Shown here in pieces: positions 4,968 through 59,787 of a stretch of 64,000 bases of DNA. Both the position numbers and the translations under genes were made by a program. The notes beneath the pieces were generated by a model. The model did no database searches. It was not told the DNA's origin and worked only from the letters and a program-made list of their open reading frames with translations. Numbering within the stretch: position 1 is the first letter of the stretch; each line of letters begins with the position of its first letter. This DNA is from Octopus vulgaris (taxonomy: Eukaryota), in the NCBI GenBank assembly GCA_951406725.2, contig OX597815.1:27466001-27530000 (forward strand), written 5' to 3'.

Positions 4968-5343
4968 TAAAATACAAAATGGGACAAGAATGCAAAACAT
5001 CCAGACAGGCGATACAAAGAAAACAAGGACAGAGCATTCAAAGTTTTATTTCCTCTGTCAAGTACCAAATTATCTTCACAATTTCAGCTGATTATACTTG
5101 AGATTGCTCCAATCTGGCCAGCCCCAATGAGAAACTAAGTTAAGAGCATTAGATTCCTTGGAAGAAAGCAGCAAATGTATACAAAAACAAGGACAGAAAA
5201 AAAACAGACGTCCTTAGTCGAAAGACACATGTTGTTATGTCCTGTTATTATTTTTATTGTATTTGTGTAACATCATCCGTTTTTTTCTGTCCTTGTTTTT
5301 GTATACATTCGCTGCTTTCTTCCAAGGAATCTAATGCTCTTAG
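4968..5343 (-). mobile_element. TA-microsatellite-anchored short element with internal ~65-bp inverted repeat; related to 16701-16830
   Basis: Arms ~5141-5207 and ~5277-5342 are near-perfect reverse complements; the end abutting (TA)n matches 16701-16830. Confidence 0.7.
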
Positions 5344-5511
5344 ACAAAGAGACATAGAGAAAGACAGATAGATTGTATAACATAGTAGATTTAGATGCAG
5401 TACACTTTAATCAATTCAGACAATGCATACACACATATATATACACGCATATATACACACACACGCACACATACACACACACAAGCACACACACACATGC
5501 ACACACACATA

Positions 5512-21481: not shown

Positions 21482-21663
21482 ATAGATCATTAGCCACTAC
21501 ACACATTTTTTTTCTCTCCTTATTTTTTCTGTGTCCCTTTCTATAGAAGAGCATAGGCTCGAAACGTAAAAGACTTTTTCTATTCCTGAGCGTTATACTA
21601 ATACATCTGTTTGTTTTGTACACCACCTGCCTTCGTCTTTTGTTTTTTTCGTAAACTTTCCCT
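21482..21663 (+). mobile_element. ~180-bp TA-inserted element carrying a minimal hammerhead motif (21537-21572)
   Basis: cttt-ctataga-a-gagc/atag/gctc-gaaa-cg-ta-aaag; near-identical copy at 37865-38045. Confidence 0.75.
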
Positions 21664-22164
21664 ATATATATACATACATATACATAAGGCATTGCTATGT
21701 GGTTAAGATCTTTGCTTCTTGACCACATAGCTTTAGGTTTGTTCCCTCTGTGCAACACCTTGGGTGTCTTTTACTAAAACTCTAAAACTCAGGTTGACCA
21801 ATACCTTGTTAGAGACTTTGGTAAATAGAAACTAAAAGGAGCACATACAGGCACACACACACATGTGTATGTATTTATGCTCTTGTAATGAATGTTTCAA
21901 ATCTATACTGAGCTACAACTATGGCCATTAATGTCATTGTTTGTATCTCAGTTCACTGTTTCTGTATTTTAGAATTTCATTGGAACATAACAAAAAAAAA
22001 AAAACTTGAAAACCAAGTAAGGGTTGGTAACAGGAAGAGTATCCAGCCAGGTGACAGAAAAAGCATCCCGTCTCAGATACCTGCTCCATCTAATCCATAC
22101 TAAGATGGGAAAATAGATGTTAAACAAATGATCAAATATAGACATGCACAAGCACATTAAAAAT

Positions 22165-22695
22165 ATCCTTGTATCTAAAGCATCACCTTTACCTTTGTAG
22201 CAGTTGACTATGGTGCTGCTACACCAGTCATTGGGTATGACTCCTTCATGTATCACCTGGTGAACTATATGGGTGACTAGGCTATAGCCGACACCGCCAG
22301 ATATTTTGAGCATCTCTGCAGTAATTCCTGATGGGCTGGGGGCTTTCCCTGTCTTCATACTCTTAATTGCTTTATCTACCAAGGTACTCTTAATTCAGAT
22401 AGCTGGTCCCTCTGTTGGGTCAACATTCAGCAACTCTCTCTCTCCCATTCATTCTCTTTATTGAGCAACCTTTCATAGTGGCGTCTCCAAACCTCTCTTT
22501 TTGCAGCCTCGTTTAGTGCAAGTGAACCATCATCCATACGAACACATTTTTCTCCTACGACATCACGATTCTCTCTCACACACTGTCTTGCAACACGAAA
22601 TTCCTCAAGTCTTTGGTCTTCACAGCGCAGAACATTGGCAAACTTTTTCTTATCTGCTTCCCCTCTGGCTAAATAAACCTGTCTCCTAGCTTCCC
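22165..22695 (-). mobile_element. RTE LINE internal fragment (pre-RT and RT start)
   Basis: REARRQVYLARGEA...VWRRHYERLLNKENEW; VDKAIKSMKTGKAPSPSGITAEMLK...IPNDWCSSTIVNCYKGKGDALD. Confidence 0.92.
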
Positions 22696-22737
<42 letters not shown>

Positions 22738-23292
22738 GTAATGTGGTGATTGACGATTTAAAGTCTATTCTCAGCATATTGGCAGAGAATTTTTTTCTTT
22801 TGCCCTTGTTTATAAATTACATATATAAGATATATATATATATATATATATATATATCATAATATATCATGTGTTTGTGTATTCCCCCTCCACACACACA
22901 CACACACAAAACATACCTCACAAGACACAAATATATAAGTACTAAACTCATTTTTTGAGTTGAAATAGCTGAAATCTTTCACTTGTTTTTCATTTTCGTT
23001 AAAAAGATATTTGAAAAATCCCCCAATCTCTCTGACAGCTCAACAGCAATTAAATGAATGCCTGAAGGGAATTAGTAGCTCTTATTGCTATAAATATGGC
23101 ACAAACTAATCCAAAGACTCATTCTTCACTGATGTGAAGTGACACTACTAACAACAACAACAAAAACAACGATAACAGTCACTTGGTGTTTAGGAATTTA
23201 GATTATAATTTATTTTCAATTAAAATTTTGGCTTGTTTTTATTCCTAACAATTTTTTTGCTTGTTGTTGTTTGATAATATTATTCACCACCA

Positions 23293-23675
23293 CACATGGT
23301 TGTGTGGGTAAGAAGCTCATTTGCTACCTTGTGGTTTCAGGTTCAGTCCCACTACATGGCAACTTGGGTAAATGTCTTCTACTTTAGCTCCAGTCCAACC
23401 AAAACCTTGTGTGGGAATTTTGTAAACAGAAACTGTGTGGAAGTTTTTCATGTATGTGTATTTGTGTCTTTGTGTTTCTCCACTCTCCTCACCACTGCTT
23501 CTCATCCAGTATTGGTTTGTTTATATCCCTGTGCCTTAGCAATTTGACAAAAAAGATCAATAGAATAAGTACCAAACTTAAAAGTAATTATTGGGGTTGA
23601 TTCATTCAACTAAACCCTTCGAGGTGGTGCCCTAGCATGGCCACAGTGAACTGAAATGAGTAAAATGGAAAAGTT
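23293..23675 (+). mobile_element. SINE A (old)
   Basis: Diverged match to family A. Confidence 0.8.
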
Positions 23676-23870
23676 AAAAACATCATTATTATGATCCTCA
23701 TCTTCATCTCTTGCAGTTTTCATTTTGAGCCTTTTAATGATGTAATAAATTGGACATGTGTACAGTATTAACTCTTGCTCCCTAGCTGTCTTTGTATTTG
23801 TTCCTATGTATTCAATTTGTTATTTCTGCACTAGAAGTTTGTTCAAGTAGAACTGTTTGAAGATGGCCAG

Positions 23871-24380
23871 TACTGTAAATCCTCGAGTATAATCCGCATT
23901 TTTTTCCCAAAATTTAAAGGTCAAAATCCCTAGTGCGTACTATATACGGGGTTAAAAATGAAAAATATTTTCTAAGCAATGTCTCTATTTGCTGTCCGGC
24001 AATGTTTATTCAGACCCATTTTGTGATGTAGGGCATGAAAATACCTTAAGCTAAGCCTGAAAGCAATGAAGTCATAAAAGAATCATCCATAACTTGCAGT
24101 AAGCAACATTTATTAAACATTATTACTGTTATTTCTTTATTTTCTGCAAACAAAATGCACAAAAAAGCTACATGTTTGCATTATGTTATATGTACAATAA
24201 TAATAAAGGACGTTACCGTATACATTTTTACAAACCAAGGATGTTATATAGACCTCCTTGACTCATGTTAGAGAAGGGGTGCATATTATACATAAGGTTT
24301 AGGTTTTACAGAAGTACAGTCCCCTAAAAATCCCCTGCGTATTATACTCAATGGCGGACTATACCCGAGGATTTATGGTA
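23871..24380. mobile_element. TcMar (pogo/Tc2-like) MITE
   Basis: TIRs tactgtaaatcctcgagtata / tatacccgaggatttatggta, including TA ends. Confidence 0.82.
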
Positions 24381-25013
24381 TTCCAAAACAACAACAACAA
24401 CAAAATAGTTACAAGCTATTTTCCTCCACCATGTATTTATGAATTCATCTTCTACATAATATCACTGTTTTGGTTCAGTCTTACTGCAATATTGGTATTA
24501 CTTTCACAGTGATATTATTACTTCTATAACCAAAGGCCATTAACCTTCATTCACTATGTTTTACTGCAATATAACTTACTTCTGGCACATAATGTATCAG
24601 TTGTCCTGGCCCTTCCTACCTTTTCCTTAAACCAGTGATATTCTGATATTCTCCGTAACACTTGACGTTATGCTGTCACTGGCTTACACTTCTACCTTTC
24701 AACAGTTTGAAAGTTTTTGAGGTATTACCAAGTAAAACTAGTTCTGTTCTGGATTTGAAATGAGAGTGGGTGTTGTATAAAAGAATTAATCATGGAAAAG
24801 AATATATTACAATAAGTTGAAGCTATTAAATTCATTGCATGTTTTCTATTTAGATTAGCTTCAGACAGAAATGAAGTTGGACCTTAAAATGTACTGTAAA
24901 AATTAGGTTAATTGATATACAGGCTGTGGATAAAATAGCATGAAATTAAACTATTCTATGAAAAATAGACTAATTTAAAAAAGGAATGTCTCTACCAAAA
25001 CTTTCAGGACTCA

Positions 25014-25215
25014 TTAGCCCTGTAACATTTAAACTGGTCATATAAGGTTAAAATATTCTACCTGTTTTATGTTCAAACTGGCCAGATTTCACACCTACCT
25101 TACAAAGCCATTCTAAAAATAAACATCCACGTCATCAAAATCTCAAAGCTACAAGATAATGCATGATTAATTTTTTAAAAATGTGAATGACAGAATGTGA
25201 ATGCTAAAGGAGTAA
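25014..25215. mobile_element. Decayed piggyBac-type MITE (similar copy ~29070-29316)
   Basis: ttagccctgtaacattt ... aatgctaaagg; ends are degenerate. Confidence 0.5.
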
Positions 25216-26055
25216 GCTCAATATTTCTTTGGATTTAGTCATAAAAGCTTAATCTTTCTTTGGAAAGAACACAGGTATGTTGCTGATAATATTTTTCAAA
25301 AGATCCTGTAACTATTCCCACCAGCAGGTAAACTGAGTTATGAAGAATGAAATGCCTTTTTTCTGAGACACCTACAACACATTTGAGGTTACAACTTGGG
25401 AACAGATAATGAAATACATTACCACTTGTTTGTAAAGCAGGTGATGGAATAAAGGGAACCTTTTAAAGGTTGCTACTAAAGATGGCTAATCTTAGAATTG
25501 TGGGTCTCAGTCTTTTTCGCTTTTATGTTGCCCTAGAGATCAAATATAAAAAAAATACAGGTGTTCTTTGCATGGGAATTTTTTAAAAGGTCATTTTCAA
25601 GTTAAAAATTTATAGAAAACTATTGCTTACCTTATTTTATTAATCATATTTATGTATAACAAAATTATGAATAACATTGTGGATGGATAAAGACATTACG
25701 AAGTGCCACTCGCTAAAAGAGGAGGGAAGTTGTGGAAGAGGGAGACCCTTGAAAACACGTTCATCGTTTCCACTTAACCTATGGTGGCATTGCTGTTTCC
25801 AAAGTATATTTTAATTTCTCTATTAGTAATTTTACTCGTGTATCTATCTTAAAATGAGCTGCTTGGTGGAGGTCTGCGGAGGATGACATGACAAGCCTTG
25901 ACTATTGGGATCGACTCAAAAATCTCAGGCTTTGCTCCCTCCATCGCCGTTGTGAAACTAGCTTGCTGTTCTCATTGATGTATTATAACTGCTTCAGATG
26001 ATTCCTGTTTTTAAAGGGTTTTTTTTAAAAAATCAATTGGCTGTGTTATTTTTTT

Positions 26056-26185
26056 TTAACCCTGCCAAGGAGGTTATGTTTTTGCCGGCGTTGGTTTGAG
26101 AAATTGAGCGATTTTCAGTATGTGTGTATAGGGGTGGAAATGAGCTGCTTGGTGGAGGTCTGTGCTCTCCAAGTGCTTTTCTAGT
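26056..26185 (+). mobile_element. Helentron-associated (HINE-like) short element
   Basis: ccctgccaaggaggttatgtttt ... cttggtggaggtctgtgctctccaagtgcttttctagtt; subterminal inverted repeat, 3' hairpin, T-rich flanks. Confidence 0.65.
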
Positions 26186-26462
26186 TTTTAATTTATTTCA
26201 AATTCAGAGTTCAAATACTTTCAATGTATTTCCCCTTATCGCTATCAACCTAACTGTATAACTATCCATTCTGTTGACTACCTCTGTAATGACCAGATCT
26301 TCAGTCAAACAATATTTATCAGCTGAAAATTTTGAACTATAAGCCTGCAAATCATACAACAATTTAGTACATATACTCCTCTAAGGTCTTGTAGCTTGCA
26401 GAGAGTTTGTAAAGAACTAGCTGGTCAAAAATAACAGCCAAATGTAGTATTTTATATATAAA

Positions 26463-26834
26463 CTAGCGCTATGACCCGGCAACGCCAGGTCATAGGGCTA
26501 GTGCATGCATATACAGCTGCGTGCGTGCGTGCGCGCGCACATGCATGCGAGTACTGTCCAAATCTCCGACCAATCGCATACAGCTAGCTGGCATTCAATT
26601 GGTGTATCAAGTTTCGAGCATTTTGATTGGGTTTTGGATAGAAAATTCACAAAAAAGTCACTTCTATTGATTTTTTAATGGCTTTACAGGGTGACTGGGG
26701 AAATGTAAAGATGTGCACGACCACCCTTGGATGGTTTTGAATGACCATAGAAAGTGCAAGCCCTCTAACTGAAAAATTGTGGATTTGTATAAAGGACACA
26801 CACGCAGACATTTTGCCGTTTATATATATAGAGA
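26463..26834 (-). mobile_element. Non-autonomous Helitron
   Basis: Minus strand 5'-TC(tctatatatat) ... hairpin ctatgacctggc-gtt-gccgggtcatag ... CTAG-3', between A and T. Confidence 0.8.
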
Positions 26835-27979
26835 TAAGGTATAAAATAATCATAGATACAAACATTCACATACTTCCTTTGTACACACACACACACACAC
26901 ACACATATACCCACACAGAGTTGAAATACTCTTTGATTTTTCTTTTCAGCATTGAATGTTCACTATCCCACCTCCATTGCATGCACACACACATGCACAC
27001 ACACAAACATTCCAATGACTCACTTTTACATACACACACATATACTCACACAGAGTTGAAATACTGTTTGATTTTTTTTTTTTTTACACTGTAGAACTTC
27101 CATCATCCCACTACCAAGTTTGCCATCACCCCTTCCTTCCTTATTCATCTATCACCCCTTCCTTTCTCATTCATATGTTGTGACAGAGAAATACACAAGA
27201 GTATTATTACAGTAGCTATTTATTTAAAAAAAAATATAATGAGGTAACTCATCTAAAATAACAGAGGAAAAAGGAAATATTTTGATTGACACAAAGAACT
27301 AAAATGTAAAATCAATATCTTTCTCTATTTTAGTGAGCCATGATTCTTAAAATATAAATATTGAGACTACTTTTACTTTGTAATTCGTATGCAAGGCCAG
27401 TCATTTTGAGGGATAGGTGGGGAGGCAGTAGACATTTGCATCAATCCCTGTACTTGATTGGTACTTTATTTTATTGATCTCAGCAAGATGAAAAGCAAAA
27501 GTAACTTTGACAGGATTTGAACTAAGTATATAAAAAGCCAGATGAAATATCACAAGGCTTTTTGTTTGATGTTTCATCAATTCTACCTATCCATCACCCT
27601 AGGCATTTTTCACAGTGCCTATAGCTAGCAGCAATGTGTTCTCACTAGGCCTGATCTAAGGTCTGATTAAAAAACATGTTCGGTATAACTACAAGATAAA
27701 CATGACTAGAACTCCAACGATAAGGTTTTGCGATGGGTTGTATGACTGGACTTGTTGTCAGTTTAAGCATATGAGCATCCAGTCATCTGAAGAACCAACG
27801 CATTGAATTTGCATGCAAAATGGCTGGGTTTTCCACAGACACATGTATGTTCAATGTAATTCTCTGGTAAAATCAACAAATTCTCTGGTAAAATCAACAG
27901 GACACAAATGTGGCAAGGCTAGACCTTTGAATTACAGCTATAGCCCATTCTGTAGGCTTCCTTACAGTTACCATCTGTA

Positions 27980-28133
27980 CAAATGCGATAATTTTGGTTA
28001 CCATAATTGACCAATAGTACTTGAGTATTATTATGTAAGAGAAATGTGTAAAAAGCATCAATCTTATTAGTACCATTTGTTTAATGAAAAGAGACATTAT
28101 TCCCACTGAAGAGAAAATTTCCTCTGGTAATAT
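27980..28133. repeat. 154-bp segment duplicated in inverted orientation at 32237-32390
   Basis: Reverse-complement identity with about 2 mismatches. Confidence 0.92.
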
Positions 28134-28184
28134 GGCTTCCTTCACAAATTTGAGTCAACACAAGGCTATAGTAAAAGCAGTTTA

Positions 28185-28580
28185 TCTTTCATCTTTTACT
28201 TGTTTCGATCATTGGACTGCAGCCATGCTGGAGCACTGCCTTGAAGGGATTGTTCGAACAAATCAACCTCCTATTTCATTTTGTTTAAAGTCTAGTTCTG
28301 ATTCTATCAGTTTCCATTAAATTATGAGGACATAAACAAACCAACAATGGCTGTGATGCAATAACGGGGTGGGAGGATGAACAGAAACAGATTCACACAC
28401 AAACATGCACATATACACTACAGGTTTCCACACAGTTTCTGTTTACCAAATTCGCTCACAAGGCATTCGTTGGTCTGAGGCTACTGTAAAAGACACCCAA
28501 GGTGCTGTGTAGTGGAACTGAACCCAAAACCATATGGTTGTAAAGTAAGCTTCTCAACCACACAACCATACCTGCACCTA
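28185..28580 (-). mobile_element. SINE A (old)
   Basis: Diverged match to family A. Confidence 0.8.
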
Positions 28581-29316
28581 TATGTTCAAGATAATACTCA
28601 ATGGGGTCAAACCAGAGACTTCATGGTTGTGAAGTGAACAGCTTGACCATTCAGCTAACTCTGTATTATCCAATGATAAGTTGTATACTTAATGAGAGAA
28701 TAATGTGTTATAGTAGACAAGCATATATCACAAGTAGCTATTGATGACTTACTGACCTGACTTTAAAATCCTGCGAAGATTGACATAAACTCTTCCTTTA
28801 CCTGAGGTGGAAAAACTAAGTACCCACTTGCTTATTGAGCTAAATTGTCAAAATCTACTCTGTATTTCACATGTTGAGTTAGTAAAGGATTCTGAAGTGT
28901 TTGATTAGCTACTTCCTGTAACTGTAAACTATCTCAGCTTAAGTTCACTGAAGCTACTTTTTAACTACAATCTATAATAGATAAGTATCATATATAAGAG
29001 TTGACTTCTCTCACACTATGGTAACTTAAAGATAAGCTTAAGAAAGGCTTTAACCAAAGTAAAATTTCCTTAACCCTCCAGTATTTAGCTTACTCTGTCA
29101 AATGTTGTGTTTGTTTGTTTTTGCCACATTGTTTCGAATATTTATCATGTATTATCTCATACCTTCAAGATTTCAGATGATGTGATCATTTATTTTTAGA
29201 ATAACATTGTACGTTTATTTTTAGAATGATGTGAGAGGATATATCTGTACTGATTTGACCAAAACACATGTACAATACTTAGGTCAGAAATGGCCAGTTT
29301 AAATGCTAAAAAGTTA

Positions 29317-29946
29317 TCATCATCATTTAGTGTCTGCTTTCCCTGATGACATTAGTTAGAGGGTTTGACTGAAACTGGTAAGCTGGAGGACTGCACTAGG
29401 TTCCAATCTGATCTGGCATGGTTTCTATGGCTAGATGCCCTTCCTAGTGCCAACCACTCCAAGAGTGTAATGGATGCTTTTTACATCCCACCAGCACAAG
29501 TGCCATTTATGTGACACTGGCATTGGTCACAACTACGATTTCACTTGGCTTGACGAGTTTTCTCAAGCACGACTTATCGCCAAACATCTCAGTCATTTAT
29601 CACCTCTGTAAGGCCCAACATCTAAAGGGTGCTTTTTCTGTGCTTGTTATGTGAGACCAGCATGAGCCACAACTACGATTTCACTTGGCTTGATGGGTCT
29701 TCTCAAGCACAACATGTCACCAAAGATCTCGATCATTTGTCATTGCCTCTGTGAGGCCCAACATTTGAAGATCATATGTCACCACCTTGTCCTATGTCTT
29801 CCTGGGTTTACATCTTCCACAGGTTCCCTCTGCAGTTAGAGATCAGCACATTTTCACACAACTGTCCTCATCCATACGCATCACATGACCATACCAGCAC
29901 AGTCATCTTTCTTGCACACCACATCTGATGCCTCTTATGCCCAGCT
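29317..29946 (-). mobile_element. RTE 3' end: ORF C-terminus, duplicated terminal segment and family-B UTR
   Basis: WYGHVMRMDEDSCVK...GRCKPRKT...DRDLW..VLEKT, contiguous with family-B sequence and a gat tail. Confidence 0.85.
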
Positions 29947-30149
29947 TCAGATGTGGTGTGTAAGAGAGACAACAACACTGGTATGGTCATGTGATGCATA
30001 TGGACAAGGACAGCATCGGAAGTGTGAAACTTTAAACATGTAAAATATCTTGCACAGAATCACTACAAAATGCAATACCTGCTGTGGGATACAATCCTGA
30101 AATCAGATATGTGAAATGGGTTTTATCTTATTGGATCATTTATATATTA

Positions 30150-30555
30150 GGTACATACATGGCTGTGTGGTAAGAAGCTTGCTTCCCAACCACATGGTTT
30201 GGGGTTCAGTCCCACTGCATGGCACCTTGGGCAAGTGTCCTCTAAGTATAGCTTCAGGCCAACCAAAGTCTTGTGAGTGGATTTGGTAGATGGAAACTGA
30301 AAGCCTGTCGTATACATGTATATATATATCTGTGTGTATGCGTGTTTGTCTCCCCCTCTACCACCACTGCTTGACAACTGCTACTGGTGTCTTTATGTCT
30401 ATGTAACTTAGCAGTTCATCAAAAGAAACCAATAGAATAAGTACCAGGCTTTAAAAAAGTAAGTACTGGGGTCAATAGATTCAACTAAATATTCTTCAAG
30501 GTGGTGCTCCAGCATGGCCACAGTCTAATGACAGAAACAAGTAAAAGATAAAAGA
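30150..30555 (+). mobile_element. SINE A
   Basis: Match to family A. Confidence 0.87.
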
Positions 30556-31364
30556 TTTTATTGGTCTTTGTTGGTTTAACATTCAATTCTTAATAATGGC
30601 ATAGGTTGAACAGGTTCCGTAATATAATATTTCTCTGTGCATCATAACGTTATGTGTCATTTGTAGTTATATTTATGACACCCATCTTTTGAATATCCTA
30701 TTTTATTCTTCAGCAAAAAAATATCTATCCAAAACATTAGAAGATATCTCTCCTTGTGGTAGACAAACTTATTTACCAAACCAATGAGGGAGCCTCTATG
30801 CTCTGCTAGATGTAGCAGCCAGCTCTCCCTCTAATTACACTCCACTGTCTTAAAAAGGAAAGAACATAATGTAGGCCTAGATACGCTGTCATCATTTAAC
30901 ATCCATTTTCCATGCTAGCAATGGGTGGAATGGTTCAACAGGAGCCAGAGGACTTCATCAAGCTCCAGTATCTGCTTTGGCATGGTTTTTATGGCTGAAT
31001 ACCCTTAATGCCAAAAAAGATGGAATTGCATGACTGAAAAGCCTTTATCCATAAGTTAACTTTCTCGGGGCCAACCTAGGATTAGACAACAACTTGTTCT
31101 GTTATGGAATTTATTTTTCTGAAATCTGACCCAAGAACCTTCATACAAAACTTCTCCAAATTTTATTGGTTCTACATCTTGCAGCAGACATTTCTCACCA
31201 TCATTTCCTAGCATTTTTTTTCACGCATCCTGCATCATTTCTGAACATTACCAATCCATAGACTCTATTGTCCTCAGTCTCATCAACTGATGGTTCTGTT
31301 TATTCTTCTGTAATAGAATAACTGACCACTTATTTCAGAGAATAACATTGTCTTAGAACAGTAC

Positions 31365-31645
31365 ATCATCATCATCATTTAACGTCTGCTTTCCATGCTA
31401 GCATGGGTTGGACAATTTGACTGAGGTCTAGCGAACCAGACTCCAATCTAATCTGGCAGAGTTTCTACAGCTGGATGCCCTTCCTAACGCCAATCATTTC
31501 GAGAGTGTAGTGGGTACTTTTACGTGCCACCGGCACGAGAGCCAGTCAGGTGGTACTGGCAACGGCCATGCTCAAATGGTGCTTTTTATGTGCCACCTGC
31601 ACAGGAGCCAGTCCAGCGGCACTGGCAAAGACCTCGCTCGAATGT
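31365..31645 (-). mobile_element. RTE 3' UTR (family B)
   Basis: Tail, terminal palindrome and core motif present. Confidence 0.85.
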
Positions 31646-33064
31646 TTTTTTTTTTTTTTTAAAAAGAGAGTGTATTTGATGAAGTCAGTCAATGGTGTTT
31701 TTTTACTTCAAGTCTATTTCCATACATAAAGAGAATTACAGATTTTAAAGCTTACTACTACTTGTTTCAAGATTACAAGAATAAATCCTTTATAATGCAT
31801 GGAATTTGCTTGCTTCAGTATTTTTAGCTGTAAGTAGATGCTTCTTCTACATGGCAATTGTATCTTTGGTATAAGGAAAGATATTAAACTGGAGTGTGGG
31901 GGAATAATTTAAATAATATAAACAAACATCTAAATTTGCAAACCTAATTCACCCTTATATTGAAAAATAGCCTAAAGCAAGAAGAAAAAATGTGAAAATA
32001 CGACATATCATTTGTTTTACATTTAAATCATTTTCTCTCTCTTTTTTTTTTTTTTTTTTTTCACTTTCCTCAGTGAATCCCCTTTTTCAAAAAAGTATCC
32101 AAATTTAGACTGTTGTCGACTTAGAAAAAATAACTACAATTTTAATATAGGAAAATCCTTTCTAATGCTAATGGATTAATTTGGCAGTAATATTTTTTCA
32201 ACTAATTATACTAAAACAAATTTGGTTGATTAATGAATATTACCAGAGGAAATTTTCTCTTCAGTGGGAATAATGTCTCTTTTCATTAAACAAATGGTAC
32301 TAATGAGATTGATGCTTTTTACACATTTCTCTTACATAACAATACTCAAGTACTATTGGTCAATTATGGTAACCAAAATTATCGCATTTGGGGAATATGT
32401 AATCTTTCAACATGTTTTACAAAGGGTCATGATGAGGTTAATGTCACAGGATGTGTTCAAGTACTTCCTCTATTCCTTTTATACAACTAGAATAGACGCA
32501 TATTCCTTTATGTATTTTGCTCAACAGAATTTCAATTTAAGAGACGTTCTCTAGTATAAACACACGTGTCAATCACAATTAAATTTAATATGTGTGTTTG
32601 TTATAACAGTTTCATATTTACTCCATAATTAAACAAAGACATTACTCTAAATACTATCTCTGAAGAATGATATAGTTTTTTGTAACAATGTAAGAATACA
32701 ATGTACTGCACCTAGGCACTCTATTTTGAGTAAGGCGTGGTTAAACAATCCAACCAAGACTGCTTCAATGGTAACTCATATTCCCCATCACCCACATCAT
32801 GTTACTGCTGTGCTCACAGAAAAAAAAAAAGAAAAGTCACTTTTCAGTTTGCTACAAATTGACATAACCCCTACCTGCAATGTGATGCTCACTCACTGAC
32901 TGGCTGAATCCCCTCTTCTCTCCTTCATCCTACCTCTATATATTTCCCTCTCTTTGTTCATTCCTGGGTGCTATCAAATTTTCTTTTTTACTGACAGATT
33001 GCCCCAGATTCACTTTTCTATGCCACACCCCCACACACTCTGGTTCCAACCCCAGATCAGACCA

Positions 33065-33592
33065 GTCATATCCATCAAACATTTTCATCAAACATCTCAT
33101 CTTCATCAACTTCATCAAATAACTTTATCAGTCATTTTCATCAAACATATATCCATCAAACATTTTCATGAAACATCATCATATTTAAGAGACATTCTCT
33201 AGTATCACACATTTTCATCAAACATTTTCATCAAACATTATCAACTTCATCAAACATTTTCATCAAACATCTTCATCAAACATCAAACCCTAACCTTAAC
33301 TCTAACCAGTGCAAACCAGATCAAACCGTATCCGACAAGTCCAAACCAGATCAAATCAGTTCAGACCAGACCAGACCCTAACCCTAACCCTAACCAGATC
33401 AGACTGCTCCAGACCGGTCCAAACCAGATCAAACTGATTGAAACCAGATCAGACTGGCCAACACCAGATCAAACTGGTTCTAACCAGTTCAGACTGGATC
33501 AGACTGGTCCAAACTGGATCAGTCCAGACAGGTCAAAACCAGATCAGACCAGACCAAATTTGACCAGACAGGACCAGACTCTAACCCTAAAA
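33065..33592. repeat. Compound minisatellite: (catcaaacatttt)n followed by (accagatcagactg)n interspersed with CCCTAA
   Basis: Directly visible tandem units. Confidence 0.85.
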
Positions 33593-34436
33593 TTTTTTTG
33601 GCATGTTTGTTTAAAGTTTTACACTATCTTCTACAAACGTTTTTCATTAAAACGATTAATCAAAATTTTAAGCCTATGGAACTTCCAGTTTTTGTCTTAA
33701 CCAAGTATAAACACGTTTCAAGAAAGAGGTAGCTGTGGCATCTATGATGGTAGTGGATGTGGTTTGTGAGACAAGACTTTATAATGTCAATTTTTGTGGG
33801 GGTTTGAACAGATCAAACTAAAGACTTATACTTATTTATAAAATAGGTTAATGGGATTGATAAATAGGTCATAGTGCATCATGTATATAATTAAATGCCC
33901 CCTATCTCCGCATTATTTTCTTTAATGTAATACTTTTGATTTTATTAGTAGTTTACTTGTATGCTACTTTGTCCTAAAAGGAAGTTTACTGAAACTCTTA
34001 TCTCTCTTTTTTTAAGAACTCCTCCTATTACTGAAGAACAACACTTTAAAGATATAAGATACCTTTGGGTTGGTTACATTATAACCTCAGAAGATAATCC
34101 CCAATGTTAATTGTAGATGAAAGGTCTTCAGTCTTTATTTTTCAACTATTTTTTTAAATGGAATTTTGTTTTTTACCATCATATGAATTTACTGAATTCT
34201 CTATAACAAGATACAGTTCACATACAGTTGCTGTTAGTGATAAAGAATGCAAGACCTCGTGAGCTTCATGCATAAACAGGAAATAATAGAAGGGAGAAAC
34301 TGGGCAAAAAGGGGCTAAAGAGAAATAAAATGGAAAGAAATGAGGAAAAGCTGTAGGTGGAGTTGAGGGGGGAAATTGAGATGAAAGGGGAGTTGGCAGA
34401 TAAGAAAGCGATTACTGATCTAAGAAATAGAAAACA

Positions 34437-34880
34437 TTAATTTAAACCTGTTGATAATATGGCACCAAGTTTGAATATGAAATGTTCCTTCTGTTTCTTT
34501 GAGTATGTGGACCTATGGTGTGTGGAAATGTTGCAGGTTACCCAGATATATGTAGTGGTATGTTTCAAATGTTCTCCCAAAAGCAATTGGCAAGGTATCA
34601 GTCTGTTTCCACAATATGAATAACACCACAAAGTTTACATCATATGATACAATATTTAAGGTTGGCAAGATGTACGACAGAAGTTCTGGCTAATGTGACA
34701 TCGTAAGTTAGCGCAGTGATGGTTGTAGTGTAGGGACAGGTATTACATCATTGGCAAGTGCACTTAAAAGTGCTTCATTGTATGGGGCCAGATGCTATGA
34801 AGCTTCCCACTAGGAGGTTGTCATGGTTCATATCCTTTTTTGAAGGTGAAGAGAGGTGATGCAGGAAAGACTATTTATTC
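34437..34880 (-). mobile_element. Penelope-like element linker plus GIY-YIG remnant
   Basis: FPASPLFTFKK; TFKCTCQ*CNTCPY; NLKYCI..CKLCGVIHIVET; EHL; KEHFIFKLGAILSTGLN. Confidence 0.75.
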
Positions 34881-35020
34881 TCTTTTCTTTCTTGACTGTC
34901 CAAATTCCTTTTCACTATGAACATTGAATCACTTTACATAGTCATCTCCCACATTGACAGTCTATCAACCCTTAAACACTTTCTAAACTGTCAGCCCTTA
35001 TCTGTACTCAGATATATATA

Positions 35021-36240
35021 TAGGGGTTGGAAAAAATAATGGAAACACCTTAAAATTTCAAACAAATTTATTTTAATATGGGGTAGGAACACTTTTGGCA
35101 GTAATTACAGCTTGAATTCTACAAGGTATGGACTCATACAAAGTTTGAATTGTTTCCAAAGGAATTTTTGCCCTTTCTTCAGCTAAAACAGTCTCCAGTT
35201 CTTGTAGTGAAGATGTTGGAGGATATCAACTCCTTACTTGTTTTTATAAAATACACCATAAATGTTCAATAATATTGAGATCTGGGGACTGTGGTGGCCA
35301 GATAAGATGTTCAACTTCACTAGAATCTTCCTTGTGCCATTTAGTAACAAGTTTAGCTGTGTGAATTGGTGCATTATCATCCTGAAAGATTGTGTTTCCC
35401 TCTGGAAACAGTTCCGCAACCATAGGATGAATTTGATCAGATAAAATGCTTAAATAGTCTTGACTATTCTGCCATGAAGGGACACCATTGGGCTGGCAGA
35501 TTTCCAAGATATAGCACCACCCCCAGATCATCACAGATCCTCCATGTTTAACATTTGGAAGACGGCAGTCTAGGTCAAATGCTTCTTTTGGCTGTCTCCA
35601 TACGTATACTCGGCCAGTGGTCAGAAATAAGATAAAGAATGACTTGTCCAAGAAAATAACATTCTTCCACTGCTCTAGGGATCAATTCTGTAGGTTTTTA
35701 CTCCACTCTAAATGTTTTGCATTTTGAAAGTAGTAGTTTTCTGATTGCAGCCCTCCCATGAAATCTGGCTTTGTGCAGCTCCTGGTGAACAGTTTTTGTG
35801 GAAACTGGGTTCTCGCGGTGGTCATTAAGTTCTGCAGTAATTTTTGGTAGCTGTACTTTTGTGATCCTTTCTAACAATTCATATAAGAGCCAGATGGTCT
35901 CTGACTCAAAGTTTTGGTTTTCTTCTGGAGTTTTGTTTTGAAGGAGGTTTTACCCTCTTTCTCAAAGGCTGTCATTACTTTTGAGATAGCACTTCTTGAT
36001 ACAATAAACATTTTGGCTGTTTTTGTTACACTAGCACCTACTATATGACCACCAACAATTTGACCTCTTTGAAAGTTCGATAGAGCTATCGTTTTAATGA
36101 GTTTTAATTACCTTTTTCTGATGATATCCGAAAAGAAACAGCAATTTTAGCAAAACATATTAAGCAACGCTAATAATAAATCAAAAAACCTAAAAATAAA
36201 CAAGCTTTTGACAGTTTTATAGATATTTCCAAATTTATGA
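35021..36240 (-). mobile_element. Decayed Tc1 transposon
   Basis: VKHGGSVMIWG, FQDDNAPIHTAK, WPPQSPDLNIIEHLW (DD34E region); TIR-like taggggttggaaaaaataatggaaacacc next to TA. Confidence 0.92.
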
Positions 36241-36317
36241 TGTATATATGTATATACATATATATGTATGTATGTGTGTGTGTGTGTGTATGTATATATA
36301 TATATATATATAAACAA

Positions 36318-37130
36318 AACATTCAAACACTAAGGTTTGAAATAAGATGTCACTACTGTTAACATCATCATCATCATCATTTAACGTCCGTTTTCCATGC
36401 CAGCATGGTTTGGACTGTTCAACCGGGGTCTAGTAAGCCATGTAGGCTGCACCAGGCTCTGGTCTGATTTGGCGGTGTTTCTACAGCTGGATGCCCTTCC
36501 TAACGCCAACCACTCGGTCAGTGGATAAAATTTAAAATTGATGGTATCAACAGTAGAAACATAGGTGGTTCACAGGCAAATAGCATTATTAAGCTATAAT
36601 ATACAAATTAGCACGAAGCGTAAGAATGCATAAAAGCATCAACCTGCTAGAAATAAGAGCTAAAGTCTTAATCAAACCACTGTAAAGCACCAAAATAACA
36701 GAGAAATAACAGTAGATGAGGAAACGGAAAGAATTAATATATTCAAAAGCACATCTATGAAAGATTATGCTATTTAGGATATCTACATACCTGAGTTTGG
36801 GCTTCTGGAAATTTAATCCTTGAGCCTCTTCGGTGTAGACTACCTAGTAAACATTCATGTCCATCACGTCATATATCCGTTAATGTACTGATTTTGTTTT
36901 GCGCCAAAAAACTCAGCACATGGTGCAAAAATATTTATAAACAATACATTCAAACCCTAAGATTTGAAATAAGATGTTACCACTGTTAATATCATCAGTG
37001 GATAAAATTTAGAATTGATGCTATCAACAGTAGTAACATAGGTGGTTCACAGGCAAATCGCATTTTAGCTCTTTTTTCTAGTAGGTTGATGCTTATATGC
37101 ATCCTTGTGCTTCATGCTAATTTGTATATA
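36318..37130. repeat. Local duplication with partial inversion; first copy carries an RTE 3' fragment (36364-36516)
   Basis: 36318-36590 matches 36945-37063 directly; 36598-36664 matches the reverse complement of 37063-37129. Confidence 0.85.
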
Positions 37131-37146
37131 AAATATATATATATAT

Positions 37147-37331
37147 GATTGACTGCTAGCTCCAAAAGTTTTTTTTATTCTCTCACTGTTTGTTTCCTAG
37201 TGTTCCTTTCTGTTGAAGAGTGTAGGCTTGAAATGTAAAAGACTTTCTCACCTTCCCAAGCATTGAACTAATACACCTGTTTGTTGTTTATGCACCTGTT
37301 TTTGTCTTTTGTTTTTCTGTAAATTTCAACT
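37147..37331 (+). mobile_element. TA-inserted element with decayed hammerhead motif (37206-37241)
   Basis: cttt-ctgttga-a-gagt/gtag/gctt-gaaa-tg-ta-aaag. Confidence 0.7.
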
Positions 37332-37651
37332 ATATATATCTATATATATATATATGCACATATATACATATATATACGTATATATATATATATATATGCA
37401 CATATATACATATATATACGTATATATATATATGTCTATGTATATATGTCTATGTATATGTTTATACATGTGTGTGTGTATTTGTATGAATGTATATGAA
37501 AGAATTTATGTACTGGTAGTTATCTACACACAGGCACACACACACACACACACACACAGAGGCACACATGCCAATTAAATGTGTAGAGGGGAAATATTTG
37601 AACAGATAAAGAATGTAAGATTAAAATTATCTATTTAGACATTTAGCAGCC

Positions 37652-37688
<37 letters not shown>

Positions 37689-37864
37689 AAGTAAGATAGG
37701 GGTTATGGGTGTAACCCACTATGGGATATCATTTATCCAATATACTGTTGGTAAAGTACCCAAATTCTTAATACATAAATTTTTTAATTGCAATGCAATA
37801 TCCGTAAGTTCATGAACAAGCTAAATTTGTTTCTCCATTTTCTTCTTTGTATTATATATATATA

Positions 37865-38045
37865 TAGATCATTAGCCAATATACACATTTTTTTTCTCTC
37901 CTTGTTTTTTCTGTGTACCTTTCTGTAGAAGAGCGTAGGCTCAAAACGTAAAAGACTTTTTCTATTCCTGAGCATTATACTAATACATCTGTTTGTTTAG
38001 TACACCACCTGTCTTCGTCTTTTGTTTTTTTTCGTAAACTTTCCC
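37865..38045 (+). mobile_element. TA-inserted element with hammerhead motif (37919-37954)
   Basis: cttt-ctgtaga-a-gagc/gtag/gctc-aaaa-cg-ta-aaag. Confidence 0.75.
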
Positions 38046-38062
38046 TATATATATATAATATA

Positions 38063-38227
38063 TTCCTCCGTCTTCCTTTCCTTGGATTTTTCCTTTTCCT
38101 ATGTTTCTGATGAAGAGCTCTGCTCAAAACGTTGAATCCTCCTTCTTTCTTTCCTCTCCTGAGCGTCCAATAACACTATACTTGTTCCACATCCTCACAT
38201 TGTTGTGTTTTCATGTTTGGATTAACT
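38063..38227 (+). mobile_element. Related TA-inserted element with canonical CUGAUGA hammerhead core (38103-38137)
   Basis: gttt-ctgatga-a-gagc/tct/gctc-aaaa-cg-tt-gaat; shares the downstream cctgagc motif. Confidence 0.72.
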
Positions 38228-44869: not shown

Positions 44870-44909
<40 letters not shown>

Positions 44910-44911
<2 letters not shown>

Positions 44912-44994
44912 CGGGAAGCTTTATGAAAATAGACAAAAGACGAAGGCAGGTGGAAAACAAACGAACAATTGTATTAGTATGGCGCTCAGGAAAT
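44910..44994 (-). mobile_element. 3' fragment of the hammerhead-bearing TA-element family
   Basis: Reverse complement ttcctgagcgccatactaataca...ccacctgccttcgtcttttg...ttccc+(ta)n matches 21584-21663. Confidence 0.8.
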
Positions 44995-59147: not shown

Positions 59148-59787
59148 GATATTTCTTTATTGCCCACAAGGGGCTACACACAGAGGGGACAACAAGGACA
59201 GACAAACAGCTTAAGTCGATTATATCAACCCTAGTGCGTAACTGGTACTTATTTAATCAACCCCAAAAGGATGAAAGGCAAAGTCGACCTTGGCGGAATT
59301 TGAACTCAGAACGTAGCGGCAGTCGAAATATGTATTTCTTTACTACCCACAAGGGGCTAAACACAGAGAGGACAAACAAGGACAGACAAACAGATTAAGT
59401 CGATTATATCAACCCCAGTGCATAACTGGTACTTATTTAATCAACCCTGAAAGGATGAAAAGCAAAGTTGACCTCGGTGGAATTTGAACTCAGAACATAG
59501 CGGCAGACGAAATACCGCTAAGCATTTTGCCCGGCGTGCTAACGTTTCTGCCAGCCTGTCGCTGTGGTAGATATTCCTTTCTACTATAGGCACAAGGCCT
59601 GAAATTTTGGGAGAGAAAGCTAGTCAATTGCATCGCCCGCACTGCTTGACTGGTGCTTATTTTATCAACTCCAAAAGGATGAAAGGCAAAGTCAACCTTG
59701 GCAGAATTTGAACTCAGAATATAAAAACAGAAAATACTGCTAAGCAGGTTTTCTGACATGCTAATGATTCTGCCAGCTTGCCACCTT
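59148..59787 (-). mobile_element. SINE C cluster: head plus tandem bodies (59148-59562) and another copy (59570-59787)
   Basis: Repeated ~180-bp bodies. Confidence 0.9.

What the first reader, a model, noticed from the sequence alone, without database searches (positions are those of the whole stretch)
21482..38227. Family of ~180-bp TA-microsatellite-targeting elements carrying a minimal hammerhead with a variant CUGU(A/U)GA core
Seen: copies at 21482, 37147, 37865 and 38063 (plus a 3' fragment at 44910) lie in (TA)n and share stem I-core-A-GAGC loop GCUC-GAAA-CG-UH-stem I'. Three copies have U at core position 6 (ctataga, ctgttga, ctgtaga), while the sister element has canonical ctgatga. 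Most other deviations are CpG decay. Established: Penelope-like element pseudo-LTRs carry minimal type I hammerheads with a tiny palindromic stem III that can cleave as dimers, and A6 is normally conserved. Inference: this is a non-autonomous ribozyme-bearing retroelement lineage that spread with an A6U core variant.
Basis: partly seen in the sequence, partly recalled or inferred. Interest (0 to 1): 0.75.

Follow-up and report, generated by a model that had tools for sequence, protein, structure and literature searches.

The report
Penelope retroelement tails with variant hammerhead
These short repeats are the cut-off tail ends of a very abundant, still-young jumping gene whose small self-cutting RNA motif carries the same change at a normally fixed core letter in 96% of about 16,000 matching copies; the motif likely still cuts, slowly, but this is untested.

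Summary
The repeats and the hammerhead-like motif are real, and U6 is not decay: 15,730 of 16,332 exact genome matches have U at position 6 and 180 have A. The elements are not a separate non-autonomous family. They are 5'-truncated 3' tips of autonomous Neptune-type Penelope-like retrotransposons (RT plus C-terminal GIY-YIG, ~4.5-kb tandem units). The 38063 copy belongs to a sister lineage (68% protein identity) with A6, whose youngest branch fixed U4C instead. U6 arose once on the tree. Across seven later subfamilies none of 30 hammerhead-constrained columns changed, while the free positions 7 and 17 did. Against activity: A6 changes slow hammerheads, stem covariation is thin, and 0 of 92 copies start at the cut site. 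Copy ends pile up 80-120 nt upstream of the cut, which explains the '180 bp'. Best model: a slow, dimer-dependent ribozyme that makes a circular template, with solo tails copied from uncut short transcripts (inferred). None of the window copies is intact. This scan noted similar elements before on other DNA, including a fixed A6U core.

The parts
21482..21662 (+). Copy A: 3' tip (solo pseudo-LTR) of the U6/A7 subfamily of a Neptune-type Penelope-like element; hammerhead core 21541-21568, predicted cut after 21568; G5A in this copy
   Evidence: 95% over 181 nt to ORF-linked tip L256; tree groups it with ORF-linked L235
37147..37330 (+). Copy B: 3' tip of an older U6/U7 subfamily; core 37210-37237; three CpG transitions. 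Its own subfamily was not linked directly to an ORF here
   Evidence: 84% to L033, a copy with a long 3' UTR
37864..38045 (+). Copy C: 3' tip of the U6/A7 subfamily; core 37923-37950; G12A by CpG decay
   Evidence: 92-93% to ORF-linked tips L256, L258, L245, L261
38063..38227 (+). Copy D: 3' tip of the sister A6 lineage (3-nt loop II), in the TA tract next to copy C; core 38107-38133; G12A
   Evidence: 89% over 150 nt to ORF-linked L231
44913..44992 (-). Copy E: last 80 nt of the youngest U6/U7 subfamily, downstream of the hammerhead (no ribozyme), joined to (TA)n
   Evidence: 98.75% to intact elements L081, L095
21588..21593 (+). GAGCG-type motif about 20-30 nt after the predicted cut; seen in all lineages (also at 37258, 37970, 38161); role unknown
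44874..44910 (.). (TA)n target tract at the 3' end of copy E; shorter TA tracts flank copies A-D

Best explanation
The repeats are truncated 3' tips of autonomous Neptune-type Penelope-like retrotransposons that insert in TA microsatellites and carry a minimal hammerhead with U fixed at core position 6, and this ribozyme likely still cuts, slowly and only as a dimer, which would turn tandem transcripts into the circular template for long copies. Shown: element identity, intact ~970-aa RT-GIY-YIG ORFs in 4.4-4.6 kb head-to-tail units with one hammerhead per unit, U6 fixed with one origin on the tree, the genomic 3' end at an internal short TA tract about 104 nt after the predicted cut, and 5' ends piling up 80-120 nt before the cut. 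Inferred: the nicked (TA)n target anneals to the internal UA tract and primes reverse transcription. Tandem transcripts have two hammerheads, cut as a dimer and are ligated into a circle, so long copies run seamlessly through the cut site and into a second round. Short transcripts that start in the pseudo-LTR promoter have one hammerhead, stay uncut, and are copied to their 5' end, giving the ~200-nt solo tips. U6 would slow the ribozyme, partly by letting the core pair with the ACGU palindrome in the monomer.
For: Identity: ORF with YIDD, DKG, CxxxxCxxC linker and YIGQT upstream of the tips; Pfam RVT_1 E 1e-7 and GIY-YIG E 0.005 in that order; window subfamily linked to ORF in 11 of 30 loci. 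Fixation: 15,730 U6 and 180 A6 of 16,332; U6 rows are one side of a branch, 99/84, also with column 6 removed (74 of 76 tips, support 99; the two extra rows are private C6). Continued constraint: among 7 U6 subfamily groups (117 of 155 rows) 0 of 30 constrained columns differ, positions 7 and 17 both differ, 39 of 129 flank columns differ; G17, which breaks the NUH rule, is 132 of 15,730. The 27-nt block is shared with the sister lineage while the flanks no longer align. Template: the tandem junction is the same internal TA tract in the 11 junctions visible; 81 of 92 tips span the cut site; 0 of 12 U6 and 0 of 8 U4C tandems have their upstream copy starting at -80 to -120, against 39 of 55 first-round ends there and 25 of 30 sister tips at -92 to -112. 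Penelope's transcript starts in the upstream pseudo-LTR (PMC2377424, passages). Monomer latch: G5-C15.2 pairing probability 0.31-0.98 in 7 U6 copies against 0.01-0.11 in 2 A6 copies, 52-nt window.
Against: No cleavage, circle or transcript end was observed; no RNA-level test was possible. A natural A6C hammerhead has kobs <0.1/min (PMC3088659, passages), and single mutants in CUGA have low activity (PMC9901934, passages); even A6 minimal hammerheads cut poorly as dimers (PMC4209133). 0 of 92 tips begin at the cut site, so there is no fossil of cleavage. Loop II is also unchanged across U6 groups (0 of 4), as are other blocks outside the ribozyme (3' motif, GAGCG), so constraint need not mean catalysis; the groups were clustered on flank columns and most rows were picked by the motif, which inflates the contrast. 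No stem covariation inside the lineage. The sister lineage tolerates U4C with a 3-of-4 stem I and has 4 of 30 copies with G17, which also fits relaxed selection. The 0 of 12 comparison mixes ages: within copies closest to the youngest subfamily only 5 of 12 first-round ends fall at -80 to -120 (counted by hand). Read-through from longer tandem arrays would also give seamless long copies without a circle. The latch pairing drops to 0.01-0.78 in a 108-nt window.
Confidence: 0.55

Rival explanations
1. Same autonomous element, but the U6 motif no longer cuts; the block is kept as a promoter element, an RT-binding fold or a dimerisation signal, and long copies come from read-through tandem transcripts or template jumps.
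For: No copy starts at the cut site (0 of 92). CUGA mutants are weak in vitro. Both successful young lineages carry a CUGA change (A6U; U4C in 96 of the first 100 of 1,547 matches). Loop II and blocks outside the ribozyme are as conserved as the core. Craig et al. note that hammerhead function in EN+ PLEs is unclear and that Naiads spread without canonical ones (PMC8557442, passages).
Against: The only two positions inside the block that changed between U6 subfamilies are 7 and 17, the two a hammerhead leaves free, and 17 stayed H. G5, G8, A9, G12, A13, A14 are unchanged as group majorities.
Confidence: 0.3
2. One reading: the ~200-nt tips are a self-propagating non-autonomous (SINE-like) family, with solo pseudo-LTRs transcribed from their own internal promoter and mobilised in trans by the Neptune RT.
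For: Short copies dominate older subfamilies (29 of 30 sister tips end within 120 nt of the cut) and share a length. A solo tip holds the priming tract and probably the promoter. Non-autonomous PLE derivatives exist (PMC8557442 passages; bioRxiv 10.64898/2026.07.22.740005, abstract and introduction).
Against: 5' ends differ copy by copy over about 40 nt rather than being shared. Long or ORF-linked copies were found for the A7, U7, G7, basal A6 and sister types, and window copy A groups with an ORF-linked copy. The tips are dispersed monomers, not retrozyme-type tandem arrays.
Confidence: 0.12
3. The U6 letters are coincidental decay of an A6 consensus.
For: All four window copies are decayed in other positions.
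Against: 96.3% U6 against 1.1% A6 genome-wide; 20 of 20 intact young loci have U6.
Confidence: 0.01

Closest known systems
Minimal type I hammerheads (min-HHR) in pseudo-LTRs of metazoan Penelope-like elements (Cervera and De la Pena 2014, PMC4209133; read: main text parts 1-2 of 4, supplement file 2 part 2 of 3)
   Same: U-rich 5' flank, 4-bp stem I, extra A between positions 9 and 10.1, G10.1-C11.1, GAAA-CG-UH palindrome with no loop 3, location near the 3' end, mostly single truncated motifs in the genome; circular template proposed there as a hypothesis.
   Different: Their consensus is CUGANGAH and all 44 Fig. S3 rows seen have A6; their descriptor required the core, so it would miss this family. 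The core variant they describe is U3-A8. Stem II here is 4 bp, shorter than their usual 6-8.
Neptune clade of C-terminal EN+ Penelope-like elements (Craig et al. 2021, PMC8557442; read: passages, section 6, supplement part 54)
   Same: One ORF with RT then GIY-YIG, CX2-5CxxC linker with Neptune-length spacer, CCHH, DKG, no IFD, partial tandems, 5' truncation, inverted adjacent tips, (TA)n targets, hammerhead near the 3' end.
   Different: Fixed A6U core; about 1.1 kb CT/CA-rich 3' UTR; 3' end set by an internal TA tract; sharp pile-up of ~200-nt copies. Clade placement is by motif comparison, not by a tree with reference Neptune sequences.
Natural hammerhead core variants A6C (phage Bcep176) and U4C (viroid) (Perreault et al. 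2011, PMC3088659; read: passages)
   Same: A change at position 6 or 4 of the CUGA turn that occurs in nature; A6C cleaves slowly, U4C suffices in vivo.
   Different: Those are single rare examples; here A6U and U4C are fixed in about 15,700 and about 1,500 exact-match copies of two sister retroelements. 'A6U' has 0 occurrences in that text.
Non-LTR retrozymes (bioRxiv 10.64898/2026.07.22.740005; read: abstract, introduction, part of methods)
   Same: Short hammerhead-bearing repeats related to PLE pseudo-LTRs.
   Different: Retrozymes are defined by tandem units each with a hammerhead; these tips are dispersed monomers continuous with the parent element's 3' UTR.

Membership tests
EN+ Penelope-like element | [quoted passage not shown] | tested here: met
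   966-aa segment: RVT_1 at 454-643 (E 1.1e-7, above cut-off), GIY-YIG at 874-907 (E 0.005, below cut-off); YIDD and YIGQT motifs
EN+ Penelope-like element | Partial head-to-tail tandems forming pseudo-LTRs, frequent 5' truncation | tested here: met
   12 of 20 long-ORF loci have two hammerheads 4.44-4.58 kb apart; variable upstream partial copies; truncation
Neptune clade | CX2-5CxxC linker between RT and EN with Neptune-length spacing, CCHH, DKG, no IFD | tested here: met
   Compared by eye with Fig. S1-S2 rows of PMC8557442: resembles Neptune1_Nv and DrerioNep1, not the short Nematis spacer; DKG and CCHH exclude Hydra as described
Neptune clade | Phylogenetic placement among reference Neptune RTs | not tested
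Minimal type I hammerhead (min-HHR) | Core C3 U4 G5 A6 N7 G8 A9 ... G12 A13 A14, NUH | tested here: not met
   All positions match except A6, which is U in 96.3%; H17 kept (G17 0.8%)
Minimal type I hammerhead (min-HHR) | Stems I and II, extra nucleotide after A9, G10.1-C11.1, palindromic stem III without loop | tested here: met
   Alignment A1; 92% of cells paired; stem II probability about 1.0 in intact copies L081 and L112
Minimal type I hammerhead (min-HHR) | Compensatory changes in stems | tested here: inconclusive
   One stem I pair C-G to G-C/G-U between lineages; stem II invariant; the two rows of a third family were misaligned, so part of the count is not valid; none inside the U6 lineage
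Minimal type I hammerhead (min-HHR) | Self-cleavage as a dimer | not testable with these tools
   No assay; indirect test negative: 0 of 92 copies start at the cut site
Non-LTR retrozyme / non-autonomous PLE | Tandem short units, or a discrete short element without a coding parent in cis | tested here: not met
   Dispersed monomers with variable 5' ends that continue into 3' UTR and ORF

The most novel reading that the evidence does not exclude
Two sister retrotransposon lineages each fixed a different weakening change in the hammerhead's CUGA turn (A6U, U4C) because a slow, dimer-only ribozyme is selected: it circularises tandem transcripts for rolling-circle reverse transcription primed at an internal UA tract, while sparing single-ribozyme transcripts, which are copied into ~200-nt solo tails. 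A6U would then be a naturally working core variant present in over 15,000 copies, and the copy-end pattern would be genomic evidence for a circular Penelope template.
Probability: 0.3. Interest if true: 0.75.

Novelty: new variant of a known kind. Interest (0 to 1): 0.47.

Why it matters
What hammerheads do in Penelope-like elements is an open question. This genome holds young, intact elements with three natural cores (A6, U6, C4) in nearly the same scaffold, so cleavage rate can be set against transposition success. If U6 cleaves, the hammerhead consensus used in searches is too strict and misses very large families. If it does not, a highly successful retroelement has kept a ribozyme-shaped block for another job. 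The internal priming tract and the copy-end pattern give testable predictions about a circular template. The element type itself is known.

Tried and rejected
Fossil test for cleavage (5' ends at the cut site): negative, 0 of 92; nearest ends at -7 and +12 (93 tips found, 1 not aligned). Simple model in which all copies stop at one transcription start: rejected, since 0 of 20 tandem upstream copies start there. Apparent loss of the ORF stop codon in the youngest subfamily: rejected as C-run length variation, since L083 holds both forms; the ORF is about 970 aa. Rfam: no hammerhead match. Pfam on the 357-aa C-terminal piece: no hit. RNA data: no RNA holder listed; the four runs laid were contigs only, with no starts, ends or joints, so nothing on expression, splicing or cleavage; one run of another organism label holds an identical 120-nt piece across the U6 core. 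Two-strand folding does not return the active dimer and is uninformative. A branch-by-branch count of changes along the tree was not made, so the constraint test rests on extant subfamily groups. Literature: 'hammerhead + A6U + catalytic core' 0 papers; 'hammerhead ribozyme + octopus' 4 listed, none describing this; searches gave nothing on A6U in the listings. Lunse et al. 2017 on PLE hammerhead dimers is not held (only its title seen) and may list position-6 variants. Supplement file 1 of PMC4209133 could not be searched, and figure panels are not readable. PMC13282606 (passages) has 0 mentions of hammerhead or Neptune. Sequence look-up in earlier findings was empty.
Full report
Observation. 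The window holds four hammerhead-like motifs at 21541, 37210, 37923 and 38107 and a minus-strand 3' fragment at 44913-44992, all next to (TA)n. Copies A (21482) and C (37864) are 94% identical, B (37147) is 77-78% identical to them, and D (38063) does not align to them by BLASTN. No copy is intact: A has G5A, C and D have G12A, and B has three CpG transitions. Rfam finds no hammerhead. The host is an animal genome of 2.8 Gb; earlier scan notes call it octopus-like, which I did not test.

U6 is fixed. A 27-letter motif with positions 6 and 7 left open has 16,332 exact matches (control 0); 15,730 have U6 and 180 have A6. All four letters occur at position 7 among the first 100 listed. Of 93 tips picked by a 3' motif outside the ribozyme, 75 aligned across the core and 73 of these have U6. 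The sister motif of copy D has 3,853 exact matches, with 97 A6 and 0 U6 in the first 100.

The repeats are tips of autonomous elements. Some copies continue 5' through a CT/CA-rich UTR into an ORF with YIDD, a CxxxxCxxC linker and YIGQT. That protein piece has 24,044 first-look candidates, many with identical scores. Twenty loci chosen for long open frames all carry the U6 motif, and 12 have two motifs 4.44-4.58 kb apart. Pfam gives RT then GIY-YIG. The linker, CCHH, DKG and lack of IFD match Neptune rows in the supplement of Craig et al. by eye; no tree with reference sequences was made. For the window's own A7 subfamily, 14 of 30 long loci hit the ORF and 11 of these have the hammerhead 769-1061 nt downstream; copy A is 95% identical to one of them and fragment E is 98.75% identical to the youngest intact elements. 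The D-type motif lies downstream of a second ORF, intact in young copies and 68% identical over the RT-EN part. Copy B's subfamily was linked only to a long 3' UTR.

History. In a tree of 79 tips the 48 U6 rows form one side of a branch (99/84), with two A6 copies of the same loop type basal and the D lineage outside (the bootstrap had not fully settled). Removing column 6 gives the same grouping. The youngest branch of the D lineage has fixed U4C instead: 1,547 exact matches, 96 of the first 100 with C4, and a stem I with 3 of 4 pairs.

Is the motif still constrained? Among 7 U6 subfamily groups (117 of 155 rows) none of 30 core and stem columns differs, both free positions 7 and 17 differ, and 39 of 129 flank columns differ (Fisher p 1e-4; coarser groupings give 0 of 30 against 35 and 31 of 129). 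G17 is 132 of 15,730. Caveats: groups were made on flank columns, most rows were picked by the motif, loop II is also unchanged, and other blocks outside the ribozyme are conserved. Covariation is thin: one stem I pair changes on both sides between the lineages, stem II is invariant, and two rows of a third family were misaligned in the count. Published data point to slow cutting at best: natural A6C has kobs under 0.1/min (PMC3088659, passages), CUGA single mutants have low activity (PMC9901934, passages), and A6 minimal hammerheads cut weakly even as dimers (PMC4209133). Folding suggests U6 lets U4-G5-U6 pair with the A-C-G of the palindrome in the monomer (0.31-0.98 in 7 U6 copies, 0.01-0.11 in 2 A6 copies), but this weakens in longer context.

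How copies are made. In tandems the upstream unit passes through a short internal TA tract into the next 5' UTR, the same in the 11 junctions visible; terminal units end at that tract and run into genomic (TA)n, about 104 nt after the predicted cut. The sister lineage does the same. So priming is inferred to occur inside the RNA, downstream of the ribozyme, and the template must be whole across the cut site: 81 of 92 tips span it and none starts at it. 5' ends pile up at -80 to -119 (39 of 55 copies that reach this far; some ends at -44 to -70 are alignment breaks in a pyrimidine tract). In the sister lineage 25 of 30 ends fall at -92 to -112, just after an initiator-like TCATT/TCAGT (the initiator consensus is recalled). 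Yet the upstream partial copies of 12 U6 and 8 U4C tandems all start at -382 or beyond. Two template classes explain both: a short or uncut RNA with a 5' end near -110, and a template with no end there, a circle or a longer multimer. Penelope's start site lies in the upstream pseudo-LTR, 46 nt before a 75-nt intron whose end maps to helix I (PMC2377424 passages; PMC4209133), a similar distance. The contrast is weaker within the youngest subfamily (5 of 12 against 0 of 12, hand count), and of 20 U4C copies 12 extend past -230. No RNA data could test it.

Comparison and novelty. It works like, and by ORF features is, a Neptune-type PLE with a min-HHR. It fails one defining core position of the min-HHR consensus; all 44 rows seen in Fig. 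S3 of Cervera and De la Pena have A6. I found no A6U in the searches made, but Lunse et al. 2017 could not be read. Earlier notes of this scan reached a similar reading in this genome and reported a fixed A6U core in another genome; these are AI notes, seen after my own reading was formed, and not independent support. Verdict: a new variant of a known kind. Element identity and U6 fixation are secure (about 0.95); slow activity with a circular template is about 0.55.

Noticed in passing
L263-L270 (e.g. L266:8777-8805), G000-wide: Youngest branch of the sister Neptune lineage (open frames of 1008-1009 codons, units of about 5.9-6.2 kb) has fixed U4C in the hammerhead core, with a 3-of-4 stem I; 1,547 exact matches.
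   Followed up: partly
window 21588, 37258, 37970, 38161 and all lineages: A GAGCG motif 20-30 nt after the predicted cut is kept across lineages whose flanks no longer align; it could pair with the 3' strand of stem II as an alternative fold, or be a protein or promoter site.
   Followed up: no
L194, L195, L216, L217: Four of 30 sister-lineage copies have G at position 17 (non-cleavable triplet by the NUH rule) and share upstream changes, possibly a small subfamily.
   Followed up: no
L033:1799-1858, L035:7621-7680: A third minimal hammerhead family with canonical A6, stem I ACAC/GUGU and a 6-bp stem II.
   Followed up: no
window 34878-34988 (+): Short decayed RT remnant, 57% identical over 37 aa to the Neptune ORF (E 2.5e-5), 2.2 kb upstream of copy B and not joined to it.
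   Followed up: partly
window 37864-38227; L023:1290-1790; L210; L041:5270-5530: Tips of different subfamilies and lineages stack in the same TA tract, in direct or inverted order, so earlier insertions seed later ones.
   Followed up: partly
L086, L151, L167, L188, L198, L046:461-949: More distant PLE-like RT-EN ORF pieces (25-36% identity to the U6 element) occur in the fetched loci.
   Followed up: no
window 5135-5350: Long inverted repeat that scores against a miRNA hairpin model below its gathering score; probably a MITE-like or inverted repeat insertion.
   Followed up: no
window 59150-59514: Two head-to-tail copies of a 184-bp unit at 91% identity, resembling a dispersed repeat seen elsewhere in the fetched loci.
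   Followed up: no
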